Both the position numbers and the translations under genes were made by a program. A stretch of DNA of 64,000 nucleotides from Candidatus Aminicenantes bacterium (GTDB lineage: Bacteria > Acidobacteriota > Aminicenantia > Aminicenantales > JAFGBC01), in NCBI GenBank assembly GCA_963702005.1, contig OY969696.1, positions 96,001-160,000 of the forward strand, read 5' to 3'. The stretch's first letter is position 1. Each line of letters opens with the position of its first letter. This document shows positions 1,299 to 51,952 of the stretch, piece after piece. The notes under the pieces are model-generated. The model saw only the letters and a list, made by a program, of their open reading frames with translations, was not told where the DNA came from and searched no databases.

Positions 1299-1760
1299 AT
1301 GAAAAAATTCGGAGAGCTTCTAAAAGGATTTCGAGAAAGAGCCGGTCTATCTCAGTACGAGTTATCCGACCTGGTTAAAATCCACCCTTCCCATATAAGC
1401 AGGCTTGAAAGAGGGGAAAGGAAGCCGAGACTGAAGAACGTGATACGCTTCATCAATGCGCTTTGCCTTAACGAAGAAGACGGAAACAAGCTTCTTCAAG
1501 CGGCAGGCTATTCTTCGAAAATTAACAAACCCCTCGTTTTTCATTCGCCTTTAGCCTTATACAATTTTGATCCGGACATCGCGGATTTCGATGCGACGAA
1601 AATTAACAATCCGGCAATCAAAGCCGTTTATGAGGCGCTGTCCGATCCGGAGTTATCCACAGAAGCAAAAAAAGAAATTGCGGTATCAGTGAAATCTTTA
1701 GCAGATTGGCTTAGAGATAAGATGAAGAAAGAATATCTTTCCCAAGCGAAAAAGCATTGA
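1299..1760 (+). CDS. XRE/Cro-C1 family helix-turn-helix transcriptional regulator
   Basis: FGELLKGFRERAGLSQYELSDLVKIHPSHISRLERGERKP is a canonical HTH_3 signature. Confidence 0.9.
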   Translation: MKKFGELLKGFRERAGLSQYELSDLVKIHPSHISRLERGERKPRLKNVIRFINALCLNEEDGNKLLQAAGYSSKINKPLVFHSPLALYNFDPDIADFDATKINNPAIKAVYEALSDPELSTEAKKEIAVSVKSLADWLRDKMKKEYLSQAKKH

Positions 1761-3022
1761 ACGATTCGTTTCCTGATTTCCTATCGCTCAGTCACGCCTC
1801 ATATATAAGTAAAAGCCAAGAGTCGACAGGATATTTTAGCCCTCCTTACTTCGCCTTTATTCCTCATAAACTCAAGTCCTTCGATTCATACGAGCTAAAC
1901 TGGGCCTACAGTTTCTGGCATGAATTCTGGCACATGCGGAACAAGCAATGGTGCTATTTGGGCTCTTACGAGCTGATCCTCAACTATATTGCCGAAGATC
2001 TTTTGCTTTATGCCGCCAGCTCATCAATTTCTGATAAGACTTCGTTACAAAATAATCGTCATTTGAAGAAAGCTCTTGACATCGTAGAAAAGCTCTATCT
2101 GCTTCATCAGGTTTCTACCGTAGCAAATGAATTATCCCCTACCTATTACTTGCTAAACGAACGAACCCAATCGATTGTCTCATCTTCCCTGCAGGAATAT
2201 ATCTTGTCCACTTATTTCCCAAAGAAGAAATTTACTTCCCAACATGTCGCGGAGTATGTCCAAAAACACGGGGAGATCTTGCTTCGCAAACTTGAGAATG
2301 AGCCAGCTACCATAAGAAGGCCCGAGCATATCGAAGCATTCGTTTTAGGGACCTCGATAATTAATAAATGGCGTGATGTCTCTTACATTGACTCGATTCC
2401 TCTCCTGAGCATGCATATCAATATCTCTTATCTCGATCTATTCGAAAAAAATTTTAAATCACTGAGAAATCTAATCAAAAGCCTCCCCTTGCTGCTCAAT
2501 CCCGATTACCGTTTAAAAAAGATGGTTAAAGAAGGCGCCTTGCTCGTTTCTAGGAACAGGGAAAAGAACGATGCTCTATTTGTCTCAAACCTGCTCAGAA
2601 TGGCAACTCACAAAGACCTGCCGGCCAGCCTCAGAAAGAACAGAGCGGACATTAAAAGCCGATTGGACGAGGTCGTCAAGAGTGAAAGGACCGAGCGTCC
2701 TTCTCCGCGCAGAAAAATAAGTCAGCCAATCTTGATGTTCCCCACCGAAGCCGGAGATCTCTTCATTACTGAACCGGTCTACAAAAGAACCAACAAGATG
2801 GAAATCGTTCAAAGGATGCTTTCCATTTGCTATGCATCCGAATTGCTGTTAAGGTTATCGAGTTATTTCAGATACTCAAATGATATGCTTAGGGCCATCC
2901 GCTTCTCGCTAGCTTTTTTGAAGCAGAAGGTTAAAACCCCTTCCCTAATTTACGAACACATAGAACAAATATTGAAAAACAGCTTTGACAAGAAGATTAT
3001 CAATAGAATTATCCCTGAATAA
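1757..3022 (+). CDS. hypothetical protein with an N-terminal HExxH motif (possible zinc metallopeptidase)
   Basis: FWHEFWH motif near residue 55; TTG start overlaps the XRE stop codon (coupled). Confidence 0.6.
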   Translation: MNDSFPDFLSLSHASYISKSQESTGYFSPPYFAFIPHKLKSFDSYELNWAYSFWHEFWHMRNKQWCYLGSYELILNYIAEDLLLYAASSSISDKTSLQNNRHLKKALDIVEKLYLLHQVSTVANELSPTYYLLNERTQSIVSSSLQEYILSTYFPKKKFTSQHVAEYVQKHGEILLRKLENEPATIRRPEHIEAFVLGTSIINKWRDVSYIDSIPLLSMHINISYLDLFEKNFKSLRNLIKSLPLLLNPDYRLKKMVKEGALLVSRNREKNDALFVSNLLRMATHKDLPASLRKNRADIKSRLDEVVKSERTERPSPRRKISQPILMFPTEAGDLFITEPVYKRTNKMEIVQRMLSICYASELLLRLSSYFRYSNDMLRAIRFSLAFLKQKVKTPSLIYEHIEQILKNSFDKKIINRIIPE

Positions 3023-4090: not shown

Positions 4091-4309
4091 ATGACGCGTG
4101 CGAAAATTGATTTAGTCAAAAGGAAACTCGAAGCTTCGGGAATTGCATCCATGGCCTCACGCGACGTCATAGATGCAAGTAATACAAATAAGGCGGCCAA
4201 TGCATGTCAGCCGGCTTGTGAGGCCTCGTGCCCACAAAATTGCTCGTCAACATGTAATACATGTAGCCCAAGCTGCACAACATGCCAGACTGGTGGATCT
4301 AAAAAGTAA
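4091..4309 (+). CDS. Cys-rich RiPP precursor peptide 1 (8 Cys; degenerate Tat-like leader)
   Basis: GGGAGG RBS before ATG 4091; core CQPACEASCPQNCSSTCNTCSPSCTTCQTGGSKK; paralog of 4341..4565; upstream of a radical SAM/SPASM gene. Confidence 0.85.
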   Translation: MTRAKIDLVKRKLEASGIASMASRDVIDASNTNKAANACQPACEASCPQNCSSTCNTCSPSCTTCQTGGSKK

Positions 4310-4340
4310 TCTTTAATGATTTAGTTGAAAAGAGGTCAAC

Positions 4341-4565
4341 ATGACCAATGAAAAGATCGATTTAGTACGAAGGAAATTATTAAAGTCAGGGCTTGCCGCG
4401 ATAGCCTCGGGCGGCCTTGTCGGCGCTGCTATCCTTGCCACCCCACATAAAGCTTCGGCGAATTGTCCGAGCGTTTGCTCAACTTCGTGTCCCGGAGATT
4501 GCTCGGTAACGTGTAATACATGTAGCCAAGGTTGCTCAACATGCCAGACTGGATCTAGCAAATAA
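4341..4565 (+). CDS. Cys-rich RiPP precursor peptide 2 (8 Cys; twin-arginine signal peptide)
   Basis: RRKLLK, hydrophobic SGLAAIASGGLVGAAILA and an ASA cleavage site; core NCPSVCSTSCPGDCSVTCNTCSQGCSTCQTGSSK. Confidence 0.88.
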   Translation: MTNEKIDLVRRKLLKSGLAAIASGGLVGAAILATPHKASANCPSVCSTSCPGDCSVTCNTCSQGCSTCQTGSSK

Positions 4566-4796
4566 GCCTGGTCAGCGTAATTTAATATTTCAATGGCAGC
4601 TTAATGATATTTCTGCTTTGAATTAGCCAAATTAGGAATAAGCAGTGGGTTGCTATATTTAAAGGAAGAATGAGGTTTATTTATTGATCTTTTTTTTAAA
4701 ATTAGCGATGGATATTTGGGAACAACAACTATATTTAGGCAACAGTTATTATTTAATGCTCAATTTGAAAATATATGATAAAAAAAGGAGGATGGC

Positions 4797-6230
4797 GTGC
4801 TAAATCAAGATAAAATATACCTTATAAATCCAAATTATGGAATAAGGAATGAAAAGACCAAAATATTAATATATGAGCAGGATCCAACAGATGGCGAAAT
4901 AGTAAAGTACAATTGTTTTAATCCAATTTATGGAATTTTTCTATCATTATTTGATGGGAAGAATACGTTCAAGGAAATTATCCAATTATACAGTCATTTA
5001 ATCGGCTCAAACTCATCCTTTGAAGATAATGCAAAGGGAATTGATAATTATATAAATCTACTTGAATCGAATTTTGGTCCAGAGTTGTTCCTGGATAAAA
5101 ATCAAATAGAATTAACAAATGTTCCAGAATACGATCCAATAAACTTTATCATTGACAAAAACGATATAGACCTATCCAATTCTCGTTTATCGGCGCCACT
5201 GAGTCTGAACTATGACGTGACGTTCAAATGCCCAAGAAATTGTATTTATTGTTATGCCGAGAATAATTATGCTCCGAGGATGACATTGCTCCCTCTTGAA
5301 CGAGTCAAAGAAATTATTGATGAAGCGAAAAATATTGGAGTAAAATATATTATTCTTGGGGGTGGAGATCCCTTCTCAAGGAAAGAATTTATTAAATTAT
5401 TGTCTTTAATCATAGAGAATGAAATAAAATATTTCGTATCAACAAAATCGTATTTATCTGAATACGTGTGCAAAGAATTACAAAAAATAGGGATGTTAAG
5501 AATTCAGGTAAGCATTGATTCAGCAAATGAAAAAACAGCTGATTTAATGACAGGCAGCAAAGGCTATTTTAAGCAGATAATCAGCTCTATAAAGAACCTG
5601 CAAAATAGTGGAATTGCTGTCAGATGCAAGGCAATAGTAACATCGCTAAATTTCAGAGAGATACCAAACCTCCTTTCATTCCTAGACACGCTAGGAATAA
5701 GGACGATTCAAGTGACTGGATATGGCATGTCAATGTATAGGCATTCTGAAAGCTTATTTATTACGAAGGAAGGTGAAAGATGGCTTTCAGAACGAGTAAA
5801 TGAGTTCAAGGACTTACATCCACATATAAAGATTATTTATGGAGGATTCGGATCAGAGTATCTGACCAAAGAAGATAAAGAGAGGGCCTGGAAAGGAAGA
5901 GCAAAATGTAGTGCTGGCAGAAGCGCATTGAATATTATTCCCAATGGCAAAGTTTCTTTTTGCGAACAGCTCCCCTCCACACCTGATTTTATCTTCGGTG
6001 ACCTAGCAAAACAATCGATCTTTGAAGCATGGAATTCTGACCAGCTAAAAGAATTACTGCTCCCAGATAAAAATAATTTTAAGGGAACTCCGTGTTTTGA
6101 TTGTGAAGAATTTATTGAATGCAATTCAGGCATGGGGAGATGCATAAGAGATTCTTTCAACATATTTAGATCAAAATATGCGCCGGATCCAAAATGTCCC
6201 AGAGTTATACAACCCGTTAAGATGTCATAA
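4797..6230 (+). CDS. radical SAM/SPASM peptide maturase with a probable N-terminal RRE (PqqD-like) domain
   Basis: CPRNCIYC (CxxxCxxC), GGGDPF, SPASM CSAGRS...GKVSFCEQ...CFDCEEFIEC...GRC...PDPKC; N-terminal FLSLFDGKNTFKEII winged-helix-like segment; AAGGAGG RBS with GTG start. Confidence 0.92.
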   Translation: MLNQDKIYLINPNYGIRNEKTKILIYEQDPTDGEIVKYNCFNPIYGIFLSLFDGKNTFKEIIQLYSHLIGSNSSFEDNAKGIDNYINLLESNFGPELFLDKNQIELTNVPEYDPINFIIDKNDIDLSNSRLSAPLSLNYDVTFKCPRNCIYCYAENNYAPRMTLLPLERVKEIIDEAKNIGVKYIILGGGDPFSRKEFIKLLSLIIENEIKYFVSTKSYLSEYVCKELQKIGMLRIQVSIDSANEKTADLMTGSKGYFKQIISSIKNLQNSGIAVRCKAIVTSLNFREIPNLLSFLDTLGIRTIQVTGYGMSMYRHSESLFITKEGERWLSERVNEFKDLHPHIKIIYGGFGSEYLTKEDKERAWKGRAKCSAGRSALNIIPNGKVSFCEQLPSTPDFIFGDLAKQSIFEAWNSDQLKELLLPDKNNFKGTPCFDCEEFIECNSGMGRCIRDSFNIFRSKYAPDPKCPRVIQPVKMS

Positions 6231-6290
6231 TTTGATAATTAAATCAAATTTATTTTATTGCTCTACGTTTTTTCCTGAAGGAGGATTTGG

Positions 6291-7445
6291 ATGCACAAGA
6301 AGATTCTGTTTATAGGATTAACTATAATTATCTCTACGTCATGTCTAGCTAACGATAGTAGACATTTCATTTTAGGCAAAGAACAGGGAGAGGGCAATTT
6401 AATATATCCATGGCATATTCAAGAGGGACCCGATGGAAACATATATGTTATGGACCAAGGTGATGCATATATAAAAGTATATTCTCCTGAAGGAAATTAT
6501 TTAAAGAGAATTGGAGGAAAAGGCCAAGGGCCAGGAGAATTTCAAAGAGCAGATGGCGCCAATTTTGGTTTTACACTGGGAGGCAAATTATATTTTACTG
6601 AATTCTTCGGAGGGCATAAGTGGATTACTTTGATCGATTTATCGGCGCGGCTAGATAAAGTTATTCATCCGGACATTGAACAAGCGTACGGTATTAACAA
6701 TTCTTTTTCTCTCGAAGATGGCGGATTTATTATCGAGGCCTGGTATAGTTCGATTCCAGAAATAAAAAGGGATTACTTTTTATACCATTATCCTCAATCT
6801 CTTTTAAGAATCGATTCAACCGGGAAGATCATTTCTGAAATAGTAAAGGCAAACTATTTTAAAACAATTTCCGCTTCAAGTAGCGGAGCGGATCAATGGC
6901 TTCCATATGTTCCAGCCTTCGCATGGACACCATATGATAAAGAATTAATACTCTTCTCGGATGGGCTTAATAATAAACTTAAGGTCTTTACTTACTCAGG
7001 ATCGTTTATTAATGAAATTAGGACTGAGCTTCCTGAACCAGAACCAGTTAAAGATAGTGATCTAAATGAGTGGAGAAGAACTAGGAGGGAAGCTATAAGA
7101 GATAGTTCGTGGTTTAATACGTTTGGAAAAGTGATTAATCAATATAAAAATTCCCTTTATGATAAGAAGCCAATTTTAGACAATATTTTTTCAACCCCTG
7201 ATGAGAATATCCTTATTGAAAGGTCGGTAAAAGAGGAGGGAACAAAAGAATTCTGGTTAATCGATAGAAATGGCAAAACAATCATTAAGACAGATATAGC
7301 TACTGAAAGATTAAGGATAGCTAAGCATTTCATATTCTTCATAGTAAAGGATGAAGAAGAAAATATTTTTGTTATTTGTTTGAAAAGAGTCGGGAATGAA
7401 AGCGAAGATCTTTTTACGGCACATAATATAAAAATATCGGAATAG
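6291..7445 (+). CDS. secreted 6-bladed beta-propeller (NHL-like) protein
   Basis: Signal peptide; DGNIYVMDQGDAYIKVYSPEGNYLKRIGGKGQGPGEF motif. Confidence 0.85.
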   Translation: MHKKILFIGLTIIISTSCLANDSRHFILGKEQGEGNLIYPWHIQEGPDGNIYVMDQGDAYIKVYSPEGNYLKRIGGKGQGPGEFQRADGANFGFTLGGKLYFTEFFGGHKWITLIDLSARLDKVIHPDIEQAYGINNSFSLEDGGFIIEAWYSSIPEIKRDYFLYHYPQSLLRIDSTGKIISEIVKANYFKTISASSSGADQWLPYVPAFAWTPYDKELILFSDGLNNKLKVFTYSGSFINEIRTELPEPEPVKDSDLNEWRRTRREAIRDSSWFNTFGKVINQYKNSLYDKKPILDNIFSTPDENILIERSVKEEGTKEFWLIDRNGKTIIKTDIATERLRIAKHFIFFIVKDEEENIFVICLKRVGNESEDLFTAHNIKISE

Positions 7446-7655
7446 TTGCCAATTTTCCCATTTATTCCCTGACTATTTGCGATTAATGGCCAGGCGAAAG
7501 ATTTCAATTTATCACTTCCAAAGATTAATAGTATCGATAAACATAATAGGCTAAATTGCAATTCATATTTCCAGATCATTGATTCATTTCCATGGAAATT
7601 CGAAGCCGATATGTTCAGGCTATTTTCTAAAAAGGGGACTTTTGAATATATTGCA

Positions 7656-8114
7656 TCATTCCATTTTCAACTTACAAAGAATTGTTATATGCGTTCCTAG
7701 CGCTTTATTTATTTTCCTCAATTTGCTCTCGATAAGATAAATATAATCATTTTTCTTAATCTTACACTTACGAAGATTAAATTGACAGTTTTTTAAATCC
7801 ACCGGGGAACAGACAAAATATTTCTTAAATTGCTTAATAAAATTCGAATAGTCGCCAAATCCCGATTCAAAGCATATTTCTGTCGTCGTTGTTTTAATAT
7901 TTGATCTCATTAAGCGTTTTGCTTCATATAATCGTCTTAAAATTACATATTTCTTAATTGTCAAACCAGTCTCTCTATGAAATACTCTCATTAAGTAATA
8001 TTTACTCAGATTGCATGCCTCAGATATTTCATTAAGAGAAATATCTGAATTAAATTCCTCGTTAATAAAAGATAGAGCATCGCGCACTCTTTGTGAAAAG
8101 ATACAATCTTTCAT
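7656..8114 (-). CDS. AraC-family HTH transcriptional regulator (DNA-binding domain only)
   Basis: ISLNEISEACNLSKYYLMRVFHRETG...RRLYEAKRLM...EICFESGFGDYSNFIKQFKKYF. Confidence 0.9.
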   Translation of the reverse strand: MKDCIFSQRVRDALSFINEEFNSDISLNEISEACNLSKYYLMRVFHRETGLTIKKYVILRRLYEAKRLMRSNIKTTTTEICFESGFGDYSNFIKQFKKYFVCSPVDLKNCQFNLRKCKIKKNDYIYLIESKLRKINKALGTHITILCKLKME

Positions 8115-8159: not shown

Positions 8160-8885
8160 TCATGCGCCCCAGGCCATATAGCCGAGCAATATAAATCCAA
8201 ATATATACGCCCAGGTCTGGAACGGCGGATAAATCCATGGAATAGATCTTGAAAGCTGCGCTAGCCGTGCGGCTTCCTTCGCGTCTTTAGAGGCGGCTTT
8301 GCGTTCGCTGAGATTTGCGGTGATCGACGGCAGAGCCGGCCTAAATCCTTTCCAGCTTCCTTTGCCTATCAAGAGGTCTGCTATCTGGCCGGAACGAGTT
8401 TCATAAACCGGCTTCGGATCGTCGTTAGATATTGGGCGGACGAAGTCAAAATAGGTGCTTATCAAGATGAGATATGCCAATAGCGGAACGCAGAAATTCC
8501 AAAATCTCAGCACGAACGCCGCAATCGCTTGACGCGGGTCCTGATGTCCATGCGAGCCACGCGGCGGGCTAAGAAGCACTTCGATGTGTTCGGAAGGCTC
8601 CTTTATTTCATGCTGCGCTGCGGCACGCAGGTTGAGAAGTTCGCGCAGAGCCAAATAAACGTTGCAGAAGGCTCCTAAAATAAAAATCGGGCCGAAGATG
8701 GGAAGGAATCCAACGTTGATGCTGCCGGCGAGCCAGCTCACTGGTGACTCGACCTCCCACGTCGGCAGCCGGCTGACGCCCGCGATAAGAAGAACGGTTC
8801 CGCTGGTGACCATGGCCAAACGGCCGAATCTCGCCCTGGCCGCGACATATGCTTCGAGAACATCCATTTTCTCAGCCTCCCTCAT
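8160..8885 (-). CDS. hypothetical membrane protein, 241 aa
   Basis: About four hydrophobic segments; ATGA overlap with the upstream nuclease gene. Confidence 0.65.
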   Translation of the reverse strand: MREAEKMDVLEAYVAARARFGRLAMVTSGTVLLIAGVSRLPTWEVESPVSWLAGSINVGFLPIFGPIFILGAFCNVYLALRELLNLRAAAQHEIKEPSEHIEVLLSPPRGSHGHQDPRQAIAAFVLRFWNFCVPLLAYLILISTYFDFVRPISNDDPKPVYETRSGQIADLLIGKGSWKGFRPALPSITANLSERKAASKDAKEAARLAQLSRSIPWIYPPFQTWAYIFGFILLGYMAWGA

Positions 8886-10273
8886 CTATGGTGCGTCGGC
8901 GGATTGCATTTCGAGCAGGGCTCGTAGCCCTTTCTCTTCGCCTCGTTCAGGGTAATCGCTATTTTGCTCTGGCTGAGATACTGGCAGCCGCTCCTGTGAT
9001 ACTTGGTGCCCGTCTCGGTTACATAGACGATTACGTCTTCGCCGGGCCTCCTTAAGGCCTCATTGGAATATCCAGAGCAGCCGGCCGAATTATAGGCGCG
9101 CACGCGAAAGGCGTATGCGAAGTCCGATGAAAGGCCAGAGTTCGTATAGGTCTCGCCATCGGCCGGGACCGTGGCTATCTGAGTCCAGTCGCCGCTTGAT
9201 TTCCGTTCTATTCTGAAGCCGGTTTCGTTTGTGGAATTATCATGCCACGCGAGTTTGACGGAAGTCGACGAAAGCGACGTGGCGGCCAGGCCCGAAGGCG
9301 CCCTGGGCAGCCCTGCCAGCGGCAGGAGCTCGATTACGACGGGCAGATGGTCCGAAGCCTCATATAAGGCGTTAGCAATCTTTATGGGGACGGCCTTGTT
9401 CGGAAGGACATTCACCGCTTTATTTAAATGCTTGCCGTCGTTGCCGTAGGCCTTGTAGCTGTTCTTGACGTAGGACAGCTTCGGGCTAGTGAGCAGGCCG
9501 TCCGATACCAGGACGAAGTCGAAGCGGTCGTCAAGGCCGCCGGAGGCGAAGCCCCCGCCGAGTTTCGCGTGAGTGGACTGGGTATGGAGGACCGCGAAAG
9601 CGGAGCCGTCGTGCCATTTCCCGGGCTTGCTGACCGGGTCGTTCACCCTGCCGTCGTTGTCGGCCTGGCTTCCCGTCAGGACCTGGTAGGCGGGCTCGTC
9701 GCTTTTGTAGAGGTTGAGGTCACCGCACACGAGAAACAGGCTGTTCGCCTTGAGGCCGTTCAGATAACTCCTAAGGGTCGTGGCCTCTCTCTCCCTCTCC
9801 TTCTCATAGCCCTGGCTAGCTTTTAAATGTGCAGAATAGACCCGGAAAACCGTTCCCGCGCCCGGTCCGGATTTCACTTTCAGGACGTACTCCGAAACGT
9901 TTCTCGGCGTATCCTGGATTTCCTTGTGCGAGACGAAGCCAATCGTCGATTTCCTATAAAAAAGGGCGTTGTCCGTATCCGTGTCCGGGTCGTCATAGAA
10001 CGGCGCCATCGCATACTTCCCCGGAGACGTGAAATTAATGACCTGGCTAAAAAACTCGTTTGCCCCTTCGAGGCTGAGCATCTCCTGGACGACGAGCACG
10101 TCCGGGCCGAGCCTGTCGACCACGAGGCGGAAGTCGTCCTCCCTGGCCGTTCCCGAGGACCCTGGGAAGTTCAGCAGGTTCCAGGTGGCGAGCTTGACGG
10201 CCTCCGAGGCGAGAGGCAGGAGGAAGAGGGCCAGAACGACGAAGAGAGAAAGAAAAAGCTTCCTTTTAGGCAT
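8882..10273 (-). CDS. secreted endonuclease/exonuclease/phosphatase (DNase I-like) with FN3 and C-terminal Zn-binding domains
   Basis: ATWNL, LVVQE, SAHLKA, CGDLN, DRFDF, SDHLPV; FN3 APSGLAATSLS...WHDNSTNETGFRIER; VYVTETGTKYHRSGC...GYEPCSKC. Confidence 0.9.
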   Translation of the reverse strand: MPKRKLFLSLFVVLALFLLPLASEAVKLATWNLLNFPGSSGTAREDDFRLVVDRLGPDVLVVQEMLSLEGANEFFSQVINFTSPGKYAMAPFYDDPDTDTDNALFYRKSTIGFVSHKEIQDTPRNVSEYVLKVKSGPGAGTVFRVYSAHLKASQGYEKEREREATTLRSYLNGLKANSLFLVCGDLNLYKSDEPAYQVLTGSQADNDGRVNDPVSKPGKWHDGSAFAVLHTQSTHAKLGGGFASGGLDDRFDFVLVSDGLLTSPKLSYVKNSYKAYGNDGKHLNKAVNVLPNKAVPIKIANALYEASDHLPVVIELLPLAGLPRAPSGLAATSLSSTSVKLAWHDNSTNETGFRIERKSSGDWTQIATVPADGETYTNSGLSSDFAYAFRVRAYNSAGCSGYSNEALRRPGEDVIVYVTETGTKYHRSGCQYLSQSKIAITLNEAKRKGYEPCSKCNPPTHHR

Positions 10274-15086: not shown

Positions 15087-16133
15087 ATGATCCACCCAAA
15101 AAGTATCGGGCTCTGGGGAATCCCCTTCATCGCCTTCGCCATTATCCCCGGTCCAGCCGCCAGCAGCCGGGAGCCGGAACGTCCAAAATTCTCGGTTACT
15201 ATCACCATCGGAATCGAAACGGCTGCGGACAAGGCGCAGGAGCCTTACCAGTTTTCATCGATCGGCTCAGCCGATTTCGACGCCCAAGGGAATATCTATG
15301 TCTTTGACTCCAAAGACTCCTGTATCAAGGTTTTCACAAAGACGGGCGATTTCCTGAGGAGATTCTTGAAACCGGGACAAGGCCCCGATGAAATCGAGAA
15401 CGCCTATGGTTTTAAAATTCTGAGGTCCAACAACCATATTTTCGTCCTGCATCAGCATGGTTTTCAGATCAAGGAATTCGACGAAGCCGGTCATTTCATC
15501 CGATCCCATCCCCTTCCGGAACAAGTCCTGAATGCCAGCTTCGTATTAATCGACGAAAAGCAGCTCCTCTACGTTGCTAGAATGAAATATGGAGAGACGC
15601 GTTTCAACAACTTGAAGATTCTGAGCCTTGAGACGAATAAGCTCATCCGGGAATTCGCTCCGGTGGACCTGGACTATTTTACGGGGCTTCAGAGAGTCGC
15701 GGTCAAGGATGGAATCGTCTGGACGTGCCCCGGAGACCTTTTAAGGGCCGAAGCTTTTGACCCGGAGACAGGGAGGAAACTCAAAACGATCCCTTTGGCC
15801 GAAGACTATGCGCCTCCTCAAGTTATCCGGTGGGGGAACAGCATCCAGAAATTCCGTCTATTCAACTATGCCCAGCCGTTTCTGATCGGCGACGATCTTT
15901 ATTTTATCATCGTCCGTCAATCCTTCACCAAAAAACCGGAAAGCATGCTGGACAAACCCCTAAAACGAGAGGCTAATGTCTATCGGCTGGCGGGGGATCG
16001 GCTGGTGGAGGAACAGGAGTTTCCCGAGTTCGATTTTCTACCGGAGTTTCTCGCCGCTTGGGAGAATAAGCTTCTCGTCTCAAGCTCAGGCTACGATCTT
16101 TATCCACGACTGAAGGTCATCGAACTCCATTAG
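15087..16133 (+). CDS. secreted 6-bladed beta-propeller (NHL-like) protein
   Basis: Signal peptide; DAQGNIYVFDSKDSCIKVFTKTGDFLRRFLKPGQGPDEI; GGAGG RBS. Confidence 0.85.
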   Translation: MIHPKSIGLWGIPFIAFAIIPGPAASSREPERPKFSVTITIGIETAADKAQEPYQFSSIGSADFDAQGNIYVFDSKDSCIKVFTKTGDFLRRFLKPGQGPDEIENAYGFKILRSNNHIFVLHQHGFQIKEFDEAGHFIRSHPLPEQVLNASFVLIDEKQLLYVARMKYGETRFNNLKILSLETNKLIREFAPVDLDYFTGLQRVAVKDGIVWTCPGDLLRAEAFDPETGRKLKTIPLAEDYAPPQVIRWGNSIQKFRLFNYAQPFLIGDDLYFIIVRQSFTKKPESMLDKPLKREANVYRLAGDRLVEEQEFPEFDFLPEFLAAWENKLLVSSSGYDLYPRLKVIELH

Positions 16134-20022: not shown

Positions 20023-21213
20023 TTAAACCTCTTTAAGAACCGCAGTAAATGCGTATCGGTAAATATGTGCATTAAAGTTCTCCCATCTTGTAATAACGCC
20101 ACCGGCTTCCGGATGAGCGCAATCGGTAGGCGGCCACGGATCGTAGACCAGCAAGCCTTTAAAGGGGAGCTGGTTGGGAAGGTGGATCATTGAGTTGGTG
20201 TATCCGGCAACCGTTCGTGAATGACCGGGAAGGAAGCTTATTAGCGGACGGTTGGCTTTGATTTCGGTCGGATAGGTGGACCATGCCGGATTAGCGACAG
20301 CAGTAGCATCGAGGGTATTGGAAGATAGCTTCTCTATCGTATCCACGACTTTATGCTCATCTCCATACGGCAGACCATTGGGATGGTCGCAGGTTCCCAA
20401 ATCCATTTCAATGGCAAGGCGGGGCTGGCTGTATTGATAGCGATAGAAATTCATGAGCATTTCCACGCTGGCGGCGACGCACCAGACAGGGGTCTGCTGA
20501 CCGCGTAGCTCATAGCATGGATGATGGTCGTCATCCCGGGGCGAATAATGTATTTCACGCGTATCCACGAGTTTGATGATAATCTTATCTACATCGAAAA
20601 TCGACTTGTTGATAACAAGCGGATTAAGGCGGCTAACAGTCGGGGTGTCCCATACAGCCCTACGCTCTTTAAAGCTGCGCATTCTGGCAGTTTTAATCTC
20701 TGCGGGCATTTCCTCGATCAGGCTCCAGCGTTCGAAGTAAGACGGTTCCATAGGTTTATGCCGCGTAGATTGCGTCGGTACTTCCGCCCAGCTCTTCCAT
20801 TCAAGCATCAGCACTTCTTGCCCTTTCAAGAGAAACTGAATGGCTATTTTTGGGAAACTGTAAGCCACAAAACGGGCGCTATCAAACTGTATTGAACGGC
20901 TCTTTTTACGCGCCTCGGCGCTGGCCTGCTCTAGAATTGTTTTTTCATTCCACACTTCCCCCATAGTAACAGCTAATAGCAGCTCACCCAAGATATCGTT
21001 GGCCGCGATATCAGTATATCCGGCGGAAGTACGACCCCGGCTTAACGGCAAGCGGTAGAACAATATCGTGCCATTAATATCATAAACAGGTGTTCCAGTG
21101 GCCGGAACGCTGACTTTATCGAATTCACTGCCGAGGACTTCAGTGATGCGGAGGGCATTTAACTCAAAGCCCGCAAGACGCTGAATCTGTTTGATAGAGA
21201 CTGGCATATTCAT
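20023..21213 (-). CDS. papain-like cysteine peptidase (C39/C70-like) with an N-terminal extension
   Basis: QQTPVWCVAAS (Gln/Cys), GHSRTVAGY (His), LLVYDPWP (Asp); AAGGAG RBS; TTGACA-N16-TATATT upstream (21337-21310). Confidence 0.8.
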   Translation of the reverse strand: MNMPVSIKQIQRLAGFELNALRITEVLGSEFDKVSVPATGTPVYDINGTILFYRLPLSRGRTSAGYTDIAANDILGELLLAVTMGEVWNEKTILEQASAEARKKSRSIQFDSARFVAYSFPKIAIQFLLKGQEVLMLEWKSWAEVPTQSTRHKPMEPSYFERWSLIEEMPAEIKTARMRSFKERRAVWDTPTVSRLNPLVINKSIFDVDKIIIKLVDTREIHYSPRDDDHHPCYELRGQQTPVWCVAASVEMLMNFYRYQYSQPRLAIEMDLGTCDHPNGLPYGDEHKVVDTIEKLSSNTLDATAVANPAWSTYPTEIKANRPLISFLPGHSRTVAGYTNSMIHLPNQLPFKGLLVYDPWPPTDCAHPEAGGVITRWENFNAHIYRYAFTAVLKEV

Positions 21214-22303: not shown

Positions 22304-23221
22304 TTAGCCCCAGTAGGTCATGACGTTGGTCAGGGCATCGATGCCCGTATCAAGGTTCCAGTTTTTAATTACATCGGCGACGACAAAAGGAGATCTCAGA
22401 CCCTCGTACAACCTGTTCCAGGCATCGACGACATTTTTTACAGACCGTTCAAAGCCGTCCTCTAAGAACGTTCCAATATTTCCGCCCGGGAGTTTGACAT
22501 TTGCATAGTAATCCTGGTAATCCTGCGGAAAGTCATGCCTAATTTCCTCCGCAGTTTTGTATAAATATCTTTTTCCAAGACCAAGGTGTCTAAAAAAGGC
22601 CGCTATCTCGGAACCATCGATGGTATCAAGAGCGGTCGTGTATGTATCAAACCAGAGTCTCGGATTCGGATTATCTTTCCGGGCATAGGCCTTCCGTGCG
22701 AGGCCCTTCCAGAACTTCAACAATTCATCAAAGCCAGCATGATTTCTACAGAACCTTGGGATGTCTATGAACTCAGCATAGGTAATGTCAATATTCTTCT
22801 GCTTGAAGAATATCAGAGAATCCTGCGCCATCTCGCACGCGCAGTGCCTTGCCTTGTTTTGCGCGTAGGGCCCAACTATGGCTTCTACGATCGGATGGAT
22901 AGTAACGTCCGCGACCAGATGAGATACGTAGCCCATCAGCCAGACGAACGAAAGCTCGTCCGAATCCTGCCAGTCGGAAACCCGATTTTTTAATTGGCCA
23001 AATCCGAGCTCCACTATGAGGTTGGTTTTCTCATAATGCATGCAGTCAGCCCAATTAGTTTTGCCTGTCTTAAAACTAAGATATGGCAAGTCCGGGCTTA
23101 CTGAACCCAAAAACAAGAATTGCGAATACTTGTTGAGGATTCGCATGAGTCCCGTGCCCAGCAGTTCGCCTTTTCTCTTTGCTGCATCGCTTATGATGAA
23201 ATGAGTAAATGCCCCGGCCAT
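22304..23221 (-). CDS. zinc-dependent phospholipase C / P1-nuclease fold protein
   Basis: MAGAFTH, LGSVSPDLPY, MGYVSHLVADVTIHP, H.ACE; start set at ATG 23221 after AAGGAGGG. Confidence 0.85.
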   Translation of the reverse strand: MAGAFTHFIISDAAKRKGELLGTGLMRILNKYSQFLFLGSVSPDLPYLSFKTGKTNWADCMHYEKTNLIVELGFGQLKNRVSDWQDSDELSFVWLMGYVSHLVADVTIHPIVEAIVGPYAQNKARHCACEMAQDSLIFFKQKNIDITYAEFIDIPRFCRNHAGFDELLKFWKGLARKAYARKDNPNPRLWFDTYTTALDTIDGSEIAAFFRHLGLGKRYLYKTAEEIRHDFPQDYQDYYANVKLPGGNIGTFLEDGFERSVKNVVDAWNRLYEGLRSPFVVADVIKNWNLDTGIDALTNVMTYWG

Positions 23222-23297
23222 TTCCCCCTCCTTGCGGTTCTTTCTTTTTATCCCCTTTTTGCCTTTTCTCCGGGATCCGGAATCCCGTCCAGCCAAT

Positions 23298-24344
23298 TCA
23301 CCAGATTCTTTCAGCCTTCTTGCTTTCGACCTTGTCCTGGACGTCCTTGGGCAGGGACGACAGGAAATCCAGACCGGTCATTTGCTCAATCTCGTCTATC
23401 GATACGAGGTATTCGCCGTAAGCGTGGCCTCTCAGGTCCTTGTTGGGCAGGAGGAAGGCCAGCGCTTCCACGTCGTTCTGATTCTTGGCGTCGATGACGA
23501 TCTTGAAGAAGTGGGTGGGCACTGCGACGCTGTCCTTTCCGATCACGGGATAGGAAACCTTTTTATCGGCGACGGCGAATGCCGGACCCGTAATCACCGT
23601 CAGGGTGCCCTTCTGTTCCACCCATCCCCTCACGGCCTCCTCCAGGTCTTTCCAGATGCCCTGATTAAATCCAACGCCTACTTGCGGGGCCATGTTCGAG
23701 AGCAGGAAGCTCTCGGCCATCACTTTATCGCTTCTGCTCATGTCCGCAGCCGGCGCTTGGTGTCCCCTGTCGTAGCCGCTGCCCGCGTAGTCGCTCAGTT
23801 CGGCGCGGGAGCCATAAGGTATTGACGTGTCCGGCGCGAATGCGTTCGTCCGCTCGACTCCGCCGCTCAGGTCTCCGGGGCTTATCTCATACTGGACCCA
23901 TACCGGAATCTTCAGCCTGGCATCTTGGGCAAGCGCGTAGCCTTCCCGGAAACGTTCATACAAGGCCTCAGGCTTGCCGACTTTCAAATGGCGATTTGGC
24001 TGTGCCGTTTCTGCGCTTATCTTTTCTTCCGCTGCTGCCGGCGCTTCGACGGTCGCGCCTTCCGCCGTTCCCTCGCAGCGCCTCACGTACGTCTTGTAAA
24101 TCCAGCCCGCCTGCCCGGTGACGGGATTGGACACGTGATAATAGCCGGCCTTTCTGTTCGAGGCGTCGTCCGGATAGATCTGCAGCTGGGCGCCTTCCTC
24201 GACGGCGCAGACCACCGCAGACTTCTTTGTCGGGCCTTCATAAACGTCGGCTTTCCTCGTGACCCTGAGGAAGTCGGCGAACGACAAGCTCGACAGCAAC
24301 GAGAAAAGCAGGCCGAGCCATGCGAGAGATTTAATGGTTTTCAT
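23298..24344 (-). CDS. secreted DNA/RNA non-specific endonuclease (NucA/EndA-like His-Me finger) with an N-terminal SH3-like domain
   Basis: YDRGHQAPAAD, SFLLSNMAPQ, FNQGIWKDLE, VAVPTHFFK. Confidence 0.92.
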   Translation of the reverse strand: MKTIKSLAWLGLLFSLLSSLSFADFLRVTRKADVYEGPTKKSAVVCAVEEGAQLQIYPDDASNRKAGYYHVSNPVTGQAGWIYKTYVRRCEGTAEGATVEAPAAAEEKISAETAQPNRHLKVGKPEALYERFREGYALAQDARLKIPVWVQYEISPGDLSGGVERTNAFAPDTSIPYGSRAELSDYAGSGYDRGHQAPAADMSRSDKVMAESFLLSNMAPQVGVGFNQGIWKDLEEAVRGWVEQKGTLTVITGPAFAVADKKVSYPVIGKDSVAVPTHFFKIVIDAKNQNDVEALAFLLPNKDLRGHAYGEYLVSIDEIEQMTGLDFLSSLPKDVQDKVESKKAERIW

Positions 24345-24741
24345 TGGAGGCCTTGACGGCATGCTTTGCCAATTTTGCGGACAGCTTGGCCTGCCTTTCC
24401 TTTTCCGCGCTGCTCATGAAGCCCAGAACGTCCCTGAACAGCTTCACTGAAGCCTTGCTGCCGCCCGAAATTATGGCTCCGGTGATCACGTAGCCAAGAA
24501 AGTTCGTCTTGTCGGCAAGGATGATGATGCTGAGGGCGTCGAATTTCCACAAGAAGCAAACCAGGGCGCATACGAACAGGGAGATGAATTCCTTGGTGCC
24601 CTTGTCTTCGCAGTGCTTTATGAAAAGCCTGTTTTCGAAGATGATGGAAAGGCCCCGTTCAATCAGGAAGGCAAGGACGACGATCGTAACCAAGACCTCA
24701 AACGTTCTTTCCCAGTCGAGATGAAAAAGGTTCGGATCCAT
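24331..24741 (-). CDS. small multi-TM membrane protein (holin-like topology)
   Basis: Three hydrophobic segments, ITGAIISGGSK and a charged C-terminus; overlaps the nuclease start. Confidence 0.7.
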   Translation of the reverse strand: MDPNLFHLDWERTFEVLVTIVVLAFLIERGLSIIFENRLFIKHCEDKGTKEFISLFVCALVCFLWKFDALSIIILADKTNFLGYVITGAIISGGSKASVKLFRDVLGFMSSAEKERQAKLSAKLAKHAVKASNENH

Positions 24742-51732: not shown

Positions 51733-51952
51733 TCATTCCAGAACAATAATCAAAATGAGGGACGCCGAAATCCTCGACGATTACGTAGTCAGGGTACTCC
51801 GGTCAGTAAATGTTCCTGTTTGCATAAATACAATTGCCGTTTTAACTGGCCTTGCTCCTCATAGGGTGTGCAAGGTATTGAACAGACTGGAGCAGGATAA
51901 AAGGATAAGGAAAACAACAAATATCCGCCATGCCTATTGGCAGTTTATATGA
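51713..51952 (+). CDS. small winged-helix DNA-binding protein
   Basis: VVRVLRS...INTIAVLTGLAPHRVCKVLNRLEQDKRI...YW. Confidence 0.65.
   Translation: MPIMIADHSRTIIKMRDAEILDDYVVRVLRSVNVPVCINTIAVLTGLAPHRVCKVLNRLEQDKRIRKTTNIRHAYWQFI

What the first reader, a model, noticed from the sequence alone, without database searches (positions are those of the whole stretch)
4091..8114. Candidate new RiPP system: Tat-signal 8-Cys precursors, radical SAM/SPASM maturase and secreted beta-propeller
Seen: two paralogous peptides with identical spacing C-x3-C-x3-C-x3-C-x3-C-x2-C-x3-C-x2-C and Ser/Thr/Asn-rich cores. An RRE-bearing radical SAM/SPASM gene, a secreted NHL propeller and a convergent AraC follow, all in one AT-rich block. 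No protease or ABC exporter is present. Known: SPASM enzymes make Cys thioether crosslinks (sactipeptides, ranthipeptides such as SCIFF), and CXXX-repeat radical SAM targets are catalogued but poorly characterised. Inference: the leader doubles as a twin-arginine signal (RRKLLK-hydrophobic-ASA), so the crosslinked peptide could leave via Tat and be matured by signal peptidase, replacing a dedicated peptidase/transporter. This is the best candidate for an undescribed system here.
Basis: partly seen in the sequence, partly recalled or inferred. Interest (0 to 1): 0.85.

Follow-up and report, generated by a model that had tools for sequence, protein, structure and literature searches.

The report
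Cysteine-repeat peptide cluster with export-signal leader
Two small eight-cysteine peptides sit beside a radical SAM enzyme that most likely cross-links them, and one peptide's leader also looks like a general export signal, an unusual but not unprecedented way to get such a peptide out of the cell.

Summary
Peptide A (4091-4309) and peptide B (4341-4565) share the same eight-Cys spacing. They are followed by a radical SAM/SPASM enzyme, a six-bladed NHL propeller with an N-terminal hydrophobic signal, and a convergent short AraC-type regulator.

The RiPP reading is well supported:
- The enzyme models confidently and aligns over its full length with RiPP maturases such as SuiB.
- A predicted complex puts the conserved N-terminal leader motif on the enzyme's N-terminal domain (0.73, best control 0.00).
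- All 6 relatives' loci I could read carry Cys-rich peptides just upstream.

The Tat reading is only partly supported. Peptide B has RRKLLK, a hydrophobic core and ASA. Peptide A has KR and no hydrophobic core. None of the 6 relatives' loci has such a leader.

The precursor type is catalogued but uncharacterised. B scores 31 bits against NCBIfam TIGR04117 (cut-off 50), mostly through its leader.

The propeller belongs to a far larger family and may be a bystander.

Verdict: a new variant of a known kind, of moderate interest. Chemistry and export are untested. The contigs of the closest maturase homologs could not be read.

The parts
4091..4309 (+). Precursor peptide A, 72 aa. Leader is residues 1-38 (4091-4204): it keeps the N-terminal motif KIDLV-K-RKL but has KR instead of RR and no hydrophobic stretch, and ends ANA. 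Core is residues 39-72 (4205-4306) with 8 Cys.
   Evidence: ORF and RBS. Cys spacing and hydropathy maximum 0.75. Alignment with B. A copy with one substitution exists in public data as P0048. NCBIfam TIGR04117 scores only 7.3 bits.
4341..4565 (+). Precursor peptide B, 74 aa. Signal-like leader is residues 1-40 (4341-4460): RR at residues 10-11 (4368-4373), hydrophobic stretch at residues 16-33 (4386-4439), ASA at residues 38-40 (4452-4460). Core is residues 41-74 (4461-4562) with 8 Cys.
   Evidence: hydropathy maximum 2.0 at residues 21-33. TIGR04117 at 31.3 bits and TIGR02811 formate_TAT. Protein atlas look-alikes. Predicted complex with the maturase.
4797..6230 (+). Radical SAM/SPASM peptide maturase, 477 aa, GTG start after AGGAGG. 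N-terminal RRE-like domain is roughly residues 1-100 (4797-5096). The C145-x3-C149-x2-C152 motif lies at 5229-5252. The SPASM region, with conserved C371, C389, C433, C436, C442, C449 and C467, lies at 5907-6197.
   Evidence: Pfam. TIGR04085 SPASM at 30.6 bits, cut-off 27. Invariant Cys in 32 homologs. AF2 model, pLDDT 93.8. Foldseek SuiB, SkfB, PqqE, CteB. PDB sequence search.
6291..7445 (+). Six-bladed NHL/DUF5128 beta-propeller, 384 aa, with an N-terminal hydrophobic helix (residues 4-18) ending at a Cys. It is exported, or possibly a lipoprotein. Whether it belongs to the system is unproven.
   Evidence: Pfam PF17170. AF2 pLDDT 86.9. Foldseek NHL domains, E 4e-11. 304 homologs at E<=1e-3, with the three named rows all from Ca. 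Aminicenantes MAGs.
7656..8114 (-). Short AraC/XylS-type regulator, 152 aa: the HTH pair only, with no sensor domain. Convergent with the propeller gene.
   Evidence: PF12833 at 63.9 bits and PF00165. NCBIfam matches cover only the C-terminal HTH parts of AraC-family models.
4566..4796 (+). AT-rich spacer (GC 0.30) between the precursor genes and the maturase gene. It holds an imperfect long hairpin followed by a U8 run. No significant structure.
   Evidence: Fold z-score -1.26. No terminator-like site on the + strand here. No Rfam family.

Best explanation
This is a compact RiPP cluster of the catalogued but uncharacterised 'CXXX-repeat radical SAM target' kind.

Proposed steps:
1. The maturase's N-terminal RRE-like domain binds the leader motif shared by both peptides (KIDLV-[K/R]-RKL and the residues after it). 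This step is predicted, not shown.
2. The radical SAM core, with two SPASM auxiliary clusters, then installs several intramolecular cross-links from the eight Cys. These are most likely thioethers to nearby Ser, Thr, Asn or other residues. This is inferred by analogy with SPASM enzymes that act on Cys-rich peptides.
3. Peptide B's leader also has the three-part build of a general export signal of Tat type. B is therefore probably exported by a housekeeping translocase (Tat rather than Sec) and trimmed by signal peptidase I after ASA. This would explain the missing protease and ABC exporter. This step is inferred.
4. Peptide A keeps the recognition motif and the core but has lost the export features, so it cannot leave the same way.
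5. The short AraC-type protein is the likely local regulator.
6. The propeller's role is open.
For: Enzyme:
- Radical_SAM plus SPASM domains.
- CxxxCxxC and seven SPASM-region Cys are conserved across 32 homologs, six invariant and C436 at 90% or more.
- Model pLDDT 93.8.
- Aligned over 485-490 columns with SuiB (E 3.6e-19), and also hits SkfB, PqqE and CteB.

Pairing:
- Predicted complex of maturase and peptide B scores ipSAE 0.73 (runs 0.72-0.75), best of 3 controls 0.00. That mark was reached by 116 of 157 solved complexes and 2 of 215 mismatched pairs. The runs agree in at least 35% of contacts. Partner pLDDT is at least 49.
- The interface is maturase residues 42-47, 64-84 and 114-121 with peptide residues 1, 6, 8-10, 12-13, 16-23 and 25-28. 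That is the part of the leader conserved between A and B, plus B's hydrophobic stretch.

Context:
- 6 of 6 loci holding full-length relatives of the maturase (27-33% identity: L001, L002, L003, L081, L082, L083) have Cys-rich small ORFs directly upstream on the same strand.
- ABC genes lie near 3 of the 6 (L001, L002, L083). None lies in 4091-8114.

Export signal in B:
- RRKLLK, hydropathy maximum 2.0, ASA.
- TIGR02811 'TAT target' at E 4e-4 for the leader alone.
- An ad hoc RR + hydrophobic + AxA filter passes 2 of 410 window ORFs: B and one antisense ORF.

Family:
- B scores 31.3 bits against TIGR04117.
- 25 of 30 atlas hits fall in the set headed by clusters auto-named for that family.

Precedent for a signal peptide serving as RiPP leader: the bufferins, which use Sec (PMC11626156, passages read).
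Against: - Peptide A lacks RR and a hydrophobic stretch, so 'Tat leader' is not a property of the pair.
- 0 of the 6 relatives' loci has a signal-like leader. The Paenibacillus leaders carry a similar K-R-x-L-L-[K/R] motif in an ordinary helical leader, so RRKLLK may simply be the family's recognition motif.
- The predicted complex buries R10-L13 against the enzyme.
- Pfam TAT_signal scores 8.4 bits against a cut-off of 22.7.
- No family cut-off is reached by either peptide or by the maturase.
- In the complex, the partner's own fold is uncertain (pLDDT about 50), and my own alignments were used, so the calibration holds only roughly.
- A sequence-level RRE signal is seen in only 1 of 32 homologs.
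- No chemistry, export or expression was measured.
- The genome's Tat genes could not be checked.
- Nothing ties the propeller to the maturase. It has 304 or more homologs against about 35 for the maturase. None of 34 contig lengths of maturase homologs recurs among the 120 listed propeller homologs. That is a weak test.
Confidence: 0.55

Rival explanations
1. This is an ordinary leader-dependent RiPP, and the Tat look is a coincidence. RRKLLK is the RRE recognition motif of this maturase family. B's Gly/Ala-rich stretch is just leader sequence. The modified peptides stay in the cell, or leave through an unlinked transporter and protease.
For: - A has KR and no hydrophobic stretch, yet keeps the motif and the core.
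- Paenibacillus relatives carry K-R-x-L-L-[K/R] in non-signal leaders.
- The predicted interface includes R10, K12 and L13.
- Pfam TAT_signal is below its cut-off.
- 0 of 6 relatives' loci has signal-like leaders.
- My ad hoc filter also passed one spurious antisense ORF among 410.
Against: - B combines RR, an 18-residue hydrophobic stretch, a basic residue before the site and ASA at the exact leader-core junction.
- B's leader alone hits a Tat-target model.
- Most of B's TIGR04117 score comes from the leader: the core alone scores 6.6 bits against 31.3 for the whole peptide. This suggests a catalogued family shares that signal-like N-terminus.
- The cluster lacks the ABC genes seen near 3 of the 6 relatives.
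Confidence: 0.3
2. The peptide is exported through Sec, not Tat. B's leader is a general signal peptide, as in the bufferins, and the modified small peptide goes through SecYEG.
For: - Sec-signal RiPPs exist (PMC11626156, passages; PMC12452194, passages).
- A hydropathy of 2.0 is compatible with either route.
- No Tat-specific model reaches its cut-off.
Against: - The RR-x-L-L-K motif and the basic residue in the c-region are Tat-like. That reading of the motif is recalled textbook knowledge, not a tool result.
- The only signal-type model hit is a Tat-target family.
Confidence: 0.1
3. This is not a RiPP. B is a small Tat-exported Cys-rich metal- or cluster-binding protein, and the radical SAM gene is an unrelated neighbour.
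For: Tat commonly carries cofactor-bearing proteins, and eight Cys could bind metal. Both points are general knowledge. No tool result points specifically this way.
Against: - The predicted peptide-maturase complex passes its controls.
- The enzyme has the build of RiPP maturases.
- Cys-rich peptides accompany 6 of 6 relatives.
- The NCBIfam family that B resembles is defined as a radical SAM target.
Confidence: 0.05

Closest known systems
NCBIfam TIGR04117 'Cys-Xaa-Xaa-Xaa repeat radical SAM target protein' (Syntroph_Cxxx). The atlas links its look-alike clusters to Pfam PF27846.
   Same: - A small precursor with Cys-x3 repeats beside a radical SAM enzyme.
- B matches over residues 3-69 at E 1.7e-7.
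- Most of the score comes from the leader and hydrophobic part, so that family probably has a similar N-terminus.
- 25 of 30 atlas hits fall in the set headed by clusters named for this family.
   Different: - Below the cut-off: 31.3 bits against 50 for B, and 7.3 for A.
- An exhaustive search of 1.84 billion representatives found no significant relative other than the cluster's own two peptides.
- I could not see any member sequence or the family's text.
- I found no paper on the family.
Thioether-forming radical SAM/SPASM RiPP maturases and their peptides: sactipeptides (AlbA, SkfB, CteB) and ranthipeptides (PapB/PapA freyrasin, with six CX3D motifs)
   Same: - N-terminal RRE-like domain, radical SAM core and full SPASM domain.
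- Multi-Cys core with 3-residue spacing.
- Structural hits to SkfB and CteB.
- PapB links Cys to Asp or Glu within CX3D/E motifs (PMC9413430, passages).
   Different: - No family model is reached: AlbA 61.7 bits against 850, StsB 57.1 against 625, and the SCIFF maturase 14.7 against 425 on the C-terminal part only.
- The cores have almost no Asp or Glu (one each), so the acceptors must differ.
- The cross-link chemistry here is unmeasured.
- Whether the 29%-identical Paenibacillus polymyxa homolog P0030 is PapB could not be checked.
Bufferins and oxazolins (MNIO-modified RiPPs with Sec signal peptides)
   Same: - A Cys-containing precursor whose N-terminus is a general export signal.
- No dedicated exporter or protease.
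- The product is delivered to the periplasm (PMC11626156, passages).
   Different: - Different enzyme class (MNIO/DUF692 with a DUF2063 partner, against radical SAM/SPASM).
- A Sec-type rather than Tat-type signal.
- In bufferins the signal peptide is dispensable for modification. Here the signal region itself is predicted to be the enzyme's docking site.
SuiB/SuiA (streptide) and PqqE/PqqD-type RRE-dependent radical SAM/SPASM enzymes
   Same: SuiB is the best full-length structural match (E 3.6e-19). PqqE is the best PDB sequence match (E 7.1e-33).
   Different: - Those enzymes make C-C cross-links on non-Cys residues.
- NCBIfam PqqE scores 92.5 against 381, and MftC 103 against 265.

Membership tests
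Radical SAM/SPASM RiPP maturase | CxxxCxxC radical SAM cluster motif and Radical_SAM domain | tested here: met
   C145, C149 and C152 are invariant in 32 homologs. PF04055 scores 92.6 bits, cut-off 29.5.
Radical SAM/SPASM RiPP maturase | SPASM domain with the seven-Cys set for two auxiliary clusters | tested here: met
   PF13186 scores 39.5 bits, cut-off 21.5. TIGR04085 scores 30.6, cut-off 27. C371, C389, C433, C442, C449 and C467 are invariant, and C436 is conserved at 90% or more.
Radical SAM/SPASM RiPP maturase | N-terminal RiPP recognition element (PqqD-like winged helix) that binds the leader | tested here: inconclusive
   For: the model has strands then three helices in residues 7-93. 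The full-length alignment to SuiB covers 485-490 columns. The leader is predicted to dock on residues 42-47, 64-84 and 114-121. Against: residues 1-135 match no Pfam or NCBIfam family, and PqqD is found in 1 of 32 homologs.
Radical SAM/SPASM RiPP maturase | Adjacent precursor peptide or peptides, conserved in relatives | tested here: met
   Two precursors lie upstream here. Cys-rich small ORFs lie upstream in 6 of 6 relatives' loci read.
NCBIfam TIGR04117 CXXX-repeat radical SAM target | Score at or above the curated cut-off of 50 bits | tested here: not met
   B scores 31.3 bits (E 1.7e-7). A scores 7.3 bits.
NCBIfam TIGR04117 CXXX-repeat radical SAM target | Cys-x3 repeats in a small protein next to a radical SAM enzyme | tested here: met
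   The Cys gaps are 3,3,3,3,2,3,2 in both peptides. The maturase gene starts 232 bases downstream of B's stop codon.
Twin-arginine (Tat) signal peptide | RR consensus in the n-region (recalled consensus S/T-R-R-x-F-L-K) | tested here: inconclusive
   B has V-R-R-K-L-L-K. A has V-K-R-K-L-E-A. Pfam TAT_signal scores 8.4 bits on B, cut-off 22.7. TIGR02811 scores 20.6 bits, cut-off 48.45.
Twin-arginine (Tat) signal peptide | Hydrophobic h-region followed by an AxA signal peptidase site | tested here: inconclusive
   B: maximum 13-residue hydropathy 2.0, with ASA at residues 38-40 just before the core. A: maximum 0.75, with ANA present but no h-region. No dedicated signal-peptide predictor was available.
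Twin-arginine (Tat) signal peptide | Tat-dependent export and presence of tatA/tatC in the host | not testable with these tools
   Only the 64-kb window is available, and the Pfam scans of its ORFs of 150 aa or more turned up no Tat gene. Export needs an experiment.
Sactipeptide / ranthipeptide | Cys sulfur to alpha-, beta- or gamma-carbon thioether cross-links | not testable with these tools
   Needs mass spectrometry or NMR of the modified peptide.
Sactipeptide / ranthipeptide | Maturase reaches a curated model of a characterised thioether synthase | tested here: not met
   AlbA scores 61.7 bits against 850, and StsB 57.1 against 625. The SCIFF maturase scores 14.7 against 425 for the C-terminal part.
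Mycofactocin / PQQ maturases | Reaches the curated MftC or PqqE cut-off | tested here: not met
   MftC scores 103 bits against 265. PqqE scores 92.5 against 381.35.
NHL / DUF5128 six-bladed beta-propeller | Pfam gathering score and a six-bladed propeller fold | tested here: met
   PF17170 scores 26.1 bits, cut-off 22.9. Model pLDDT is 86.9. The best PDB matches are NHL domains at E 4e-11, target-normalised TM 0.62-0.67.
AraC/XylS transcription regulators | Double HTH DNA-binding domain | tested here: met
   PF12833 scores 63.9 bits, cut-off 33.6, and PF00165 has two stretches. At 152 aa it has no sensor domain.

The most novel reading that the evidence does not exclude
One stretch of peptide B serves two machines in turn. 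In the cytoplasm the maturase's RRE-like domain clamps the twin-arginine and hydrophobic regions of the leader. This both recruits the core for cross-linking and hides the export signal, much as Tat proofreading chaperones do for cofactor enzymes. Only the released, cross-linked peptide is then taken by Tat and trimmed by signal peptidase. That would be the first Tat-routed radical SAM RiPP, with a built-in 'modify before export' checkpoint. Peptide A, which keeps the clamp motif but not the signal, would be a non-exported partner or competitor.
Probability: 0.25. Interest if true: 0.8.

Novelty: new variant of a known kind. Interest (0 to 1): 0.55.

Why it matters
RiPP clusters normally carry their own protease and exporter. 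The bufferin authors write that, to their knowledge, bufferins (which use Sec) are the first RiPPs shown to use a general export signal in the native producer (PMC11626156, passages).

A radical SAM-modified peptide that leaves by a housekeeping translocase would extend that logic to a second, much larger enzyme class. If the route is Tat, it would extend it to a pathway built for pre-folded cargo.

It would also give genome miners a new rule: look for signal-bearing Cys-repeat ORFs beside SPASM enzymes that lack transporters.

The CXXX-repeat target family is catalogued but has no known chemistry. This two-precursor, one-enzyme cluster is a small, tractable entry point for finding out.

Tried and rejected
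- **Word-index homolog search with peptide B:** found only itself, among 2 candidates.
- **Exhaustive HMMER search with B over 1.84 billion representatives:** 3 hits. These were B itself, peptide A's near-copy P0048, and a Cys-free Ser/Thr/Gly repeat protein of 2229 aa that I reject as compositional.
- **tblastn of B against plasmids:** nothing below E = 1.
- **Genome-contig scan with the maturase profile:**
  - The first try failed because the alignment was too diverse.
Only 3 of its 80 loci are true full-length relatives.
  - The window's own genome and the relatives at 37-48% identity were not retrieved.
  - A scan of all 8051 small ORFs in the 80 loci for four Cys at 2-3 residue spacing found one relevant peptide, in L001.
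- **Cluster-member look-up for names and organisms:** The organisms and accessions of the homologs therefore stayed unknown.
- **Contig-length matching between maturase and propeller homologs:** 0 of 34 matched among the 120 propeller rows listed. This is a weak test. Many contigs are 2-6 kb, and only the best 120 of 304 rows were shown.
- **Other propellers in the window (15087-16133, 26114-27256):** they share only a blade motif with the propeller at 6291-7445. They are not recent paralogs.
- **Attenuator or terminator between precursors and maturase:** not significant. No Rfam family matched.
- **Haft's 2011 survey of radical SAM targets:** could not be read. The DOI and a PMC id recalled from memory are not held.
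- **Literature searches:**
  - No paper holds 'CXXX repeat' together with 'radical SAM'.
  - No paper holds the NCBIfam name.
  - No paper holds radical SAM, twin-arginine, RiPP and leader peptide together.
  - Twin-arginine with SPASM gave 3 irrelevant papers.
  - Twin-arginine with RiPP and precursor gave 33 papers. The 12 listed are irrelevant by title and abstract.
- **C39-like peptidase at 20023-21213 as the missing protease:** rejected. It lies about 12 kb away, and the two leaders share no Gly-Gly site.

Full report
**What is there**

On the + strand lie two small ORFs with good ribosome-binding sites. Peptide A runs 4091-4309 (72 aa). Peptide B runs 4341-4565 (74 aa). Both end in a core whose eight Cys are spaced 3,3,3,3,2,3,2. 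The cores are rich in Ser and Thr: A has S6, T5, N2 of 34 residues, and B has S8, T5, N1 of 33. The peptides are 55% identical as protein and 65% as DNA.

Conservation is split in two. The first 23 residues are largely conserved, including K5-I6-D7-L8-V9, R11-K12-L13, S16-G17 and A22-S23. Nearly every Cys-flanking position of the core is conserved too. The segment between these two parts has diverged.

Cys-dense ORFs are rare in the window. Only 3 of 410 ORFs of 40 aa or more hold 6 or more Cys in 30 residues.

Downstream follow three genes:
- a 477-aa radical SAM/SPASM protein (4797-6230);
- a 384-aa propeller (6291-7445);
- a convergent 152-aa AraC-type HTH protein (7656-8114, minus strand).

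One correction concerns composition. The low-GC block is the enzyme (0.35), the propeller (0.35), the AraC gene (0.29) and the spacer (0.30). The peptide genes are 0.47-0.49, and the whole window is a GC mosaic of 0.34-0.58.

**The enzyme**

- It has the CxxxCxxC motif (C145, C149, C152).
- It has seven conserved Cys in the SPASM region, six invariant and one at 90% or more, in an alignment of 32 homologs.
- It reaches the Pfam Radical_SAM and SPASM cut-offs and the NCBIfam SPASM domain cut-off.
- It reaches no curated equivalog. The best is MftC at 103 bits against a cut-off of 265, then PqqE at 92.5 against 381 and AlbA at 61.7 against 850.
- An AlphaFold2 model is confident (pLDDT 93.8).
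- The closest solved folds are RiPP maturases. SuiB aligns over 485-490 columns at E 3.6e-19. SkfB, PqqE and CteB follow.
- By sequence profile the best solved relative is PqqE at E 7.1e-33.

The N-terminal 100 or so residues fold as strands followed by three helices, as a recognition element would. At sequence level this domain matches nothing, and only 1 of 32 homologs is recognised as PqqD. I therefore call the RRE 'likely', not shown.

The family is small and mostly metagenomic. About 35 proteins score E below 1e-56, and the best is 48% identical.

**Do the peptides belong to the enzyme?**

Two independent lines say yes.

First, a predicted complex of the full enzyme (with its alignment) and peptide B passed its controls:
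- It scored 0.73 (three runs, 0.72-0.75), against 0.00 for the best of three controls.
- That mark was reached by 116 of 157 solved complexes and 2 of 215 mismatched pairs.
- The runs agree in at least 35% of contacts.
- The partner's pLDDT is only about 50.
- My own alignments were used, so the calibration holds only roughly.
- This supports binding. It does not show it.
- The confident contacts join enzyme residues 42-47, 64-84 and 114-121 to peptide residues 1, 6, 8-10, 12-13, 16-23 and 25-28. That is the leader, including the motif that A and B share.

Second, I could read six loci holding full-length relatives of the enzyme (27-33% identity). All six have Cys-rich small ORFs directly upstream on the same strand:

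| Locus | Organism | Upstream Cys-rich ORFs |
|---|---|---|
| L001 | Bacillota MAG | 1 |
| L002 | Pseudoalteromonas | 3 |
| L003 | Pseudoalteromonas | 3 |
| L081 | Paenibacillus peoriae plasmid | 2 |
| L082 | Mesorhizobium plasmid | 1 |
| L083 | Rhizobium plasmid | 1 |

The Paenibacillus cores even end like the window's, with C-[QS]-T-G.

**What kind of precursor?**

- B matches NCBIfam TIGR04117, 'Cys-Xaa-Xaa-Xaa repeat radical SAM target protein', at E 1.7e-7. The score of 31.3 bits is below the cut-off of 50. A scores only 7.3 bits.
- In the protein atlas, 25 of 30 nearest clusters form one set. Its top rows are auto-named for that family, are 78-93 aa long, and Bacteroidota is the commonest phylum among the few members with a record. 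The recognition value of 1902 is below the 2300 that most known-family proteins reach, so this is a lead only.
- An exhaustive search of 1.84 billion representatives found no significant relative beyond the cluster's own peptides.
- I found no paper on this family.

The precursors are thus distant relatives of a catalogued but uncharacterised kind. They are not members by the curated test.

**The Tat question**

Peptide B's first 40 residues have the full three-part build:
- V-R-R-K-L-L-K in the n-region;
- an 18-residue Gly/Ala-rich hydrophobic stretch (maximum 13-residue hydropathy 2.0);
- a c-region with a basic residue;
- A-S-A exactly at the leader-core junction.

The leader alone hits the Tat-target family TIGR02811 (E 4e-4, 20.6 bits, cut-off 48.45). 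A crude filter for RR, a hydrophobic stretch and AxA passes 2 of 410 window ORFs. The other one is an antisense artefact.

Several results weigh against the Tat reading:
- Pfam TAT_signal gives only 8.4 bits.
- Peptide A has K-R-K-L-E-A and a polar segment (maximum hydropathy 0.75) where B is hydrophobic.
- None of the six relatives' loci has a signal-like leader.
- The Paenibacillus leaders carry K-R-x-L-L-[K/R] inside ordinary helical leaders, so the 'Tat motif' may be the family's recognition motif.
- The predicted complex puts R10, K12 and L13 in the interface.

One result points the other way. Scanning sub-stretches of B against TIGR04117 gave these scores:

| Residues of B | Bits |
|---|---|
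| 42-74 (core alone) | 6.6 |
| 30-74 | 16.5 |
| 20-74 | 20.8 |
| 10-74 | 26.3 |
| 1-74 (whole) | 31.3 |

Most of the match therefore comes from the leader and its hydrophobic part. This implies that the catalogued family has a B-like N-terminus. I could not look at its members.

**Missing exporter**

ABC genes lie beside 3 of the 6 relatives' loci (L001, L002, L083). None lies within 4091-8114. The nearest peptidase-like gene, a C39-like protein, is 12 kb away. This fits export by a housekeeping route but does not prove it.

**Propeller and regulator**

The propeller models well (pLDDT 86.9). Its best structural matches are six-bladed NHL domains (E 4e-11). It has an N-terminal hydrophobic helix ending at a Cys, so it is exported or lipid-anchored. 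No signal predictor was available to test this.

It has at least 304 homologs at E up to 1e-3, 44-66% identical among the 120 listed. The three named rows come from Candidatus Aminicenantes MAGs. That is far more homologs than the maturase has. None of 34 maturase-homolog contig lengths recurs among the 120 listed propeller rows, though this is a weak test. Two other distant DUF5128 propellers lie in the same window. I therefore treat the propeller as a possible bystander from an expanded family.

A 99%-identical propeller fragment (P0051) and peptide B (P0046) are each recorded on a contig of 3501 bases. A one-substitution variant of peptide A (P0048) also exists. So a near-identical copy of the cluster exists elsewhere in public data.

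The AraC protein is only the DNA-binding half.

**Most likely mechanism**

- Predicted: the enzyme docks on the shared leader motif.
- Inferred by analogy with AlbA, SkfB, CteB and PapB (PapB per PMC9413430, passages): it makes several thioether cross-links from the eight Cys. The acceptors are probably the conserved Ser, Thr or Asn next to the Cys, because Asp and Glu are almost absent.
- Inferred: B then leaves by a general translocase, more likely Tat than Sec, and is cut after ASA.
- Open: the fate of A and the role of the propeller.

**Comparison and novelty**

Using a general signal peptide as a RiPP leader has a precedent in the MNIO-modified bufferins. Their authors describe it as rare, and the route is Sec (PMC11626156, passages; PMC12452194, passages, where 'Tat' and 'twin-arginine' do not occur). 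I found no paper that links a twin-arginine signal to a radical SAM RiPP. The library does not hold most subscription journals.

The finding is therefore a new variant of a known kind, not a new category.

**What stayed unchecked**

- The contigs of the closest maturase homologs (metagenome collection closed).
- The member sequences of TIGR04117 and PF27846.
- The host's Tat genes.
- All chemistry and export.

Noticed in passing
window 15087-16133 (+) and 26114-27256 (+): Two more DUF5128/NHL six-bladed propeller genes lie in the same window. They resemble the 6291-7445 propeller only in one blade motif. The family looks expanded in this genome. The named homologs of the 6291-7445 protein come from Ca. 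Aminicenantes MAGs.
   Followed up: partly
window 20023-21213 (-): A 396-aa protein has a C39-like peptidase domain (Peptidase_C39_2, E 3.8e-6). It lies about 12 kb from the peptide genes. I could find no link to them.
   Followed up: no
window 22304-24362 (-): A zinc-dependent phospholipase C domain protein and a non-specific DNA/RNA endonuclease are adjacent on the same strand. They look like a pair of secreted degradative enzymes.
   Followed up: no
window 8160-10273 (-): An operon at GC 0.54-0.57 abuts the low-GC block. It encodes a 463-aa protein with a signal-like N-terminus, an endonuclease/exonuclease/phosphatase domain and an FN3 domain, followed by a 241-aa protein of no known family.
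   Followed up: no
window 38026-62737: A run of island-type genes lies in DNA of alternating GC (0.34-0.58): HerA-like DUF87 (38026-40059), DUF5677 (40101-41606), DUF4062 (47094-48542), a tyrosine integrase (51934-53172) and a UvrD-type helicase (60995-62737). The whole window looks like variable, horizontally acquired sequence.
   Followed up: no
window 1299-3022 (+): An XRE-type HTH gene (1299-1760) overlaps by 4 bases the start of a 421-aa ORF that matches no family. This may be a two-gene module of unknown function just upstream of the cluster.
   Followed up: no
window 8849-9055 (+): An ORF antisense to the 8882-10273 gene passes my ad hoc RR + hydrophobic + AxA filter. This shows the filter's false-positive rate is about 1 in 400 ORFs.
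   Followed up: yes
L002 2593-7679 and L003 2270-7299 (Pseudoalteromonas): Three short Cys-containing peptides are followed by three tandem radical SAM/SPASM genes, and in L002 by an ABC ATPase gene. This is a larger, apparently undescribed relative of the cluster, with ordinary leaders.
   Followed up: partly
L081 4992-6421 (Paenibacillus peoriae plasmid): The maturase homolog is annotated there as two separate CDS, 'radical SAM protein' and 'SPASM domain-containing protein'. It may be split or frameshifted in that record.
   Followed up: no
window 4560-4700 (+): A long imperfect hairpin followed by a run of eight U lies between the precursor genes and the maturase gene. It is not better than shuffled sequence (z -1.26).
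   Followed up: yes
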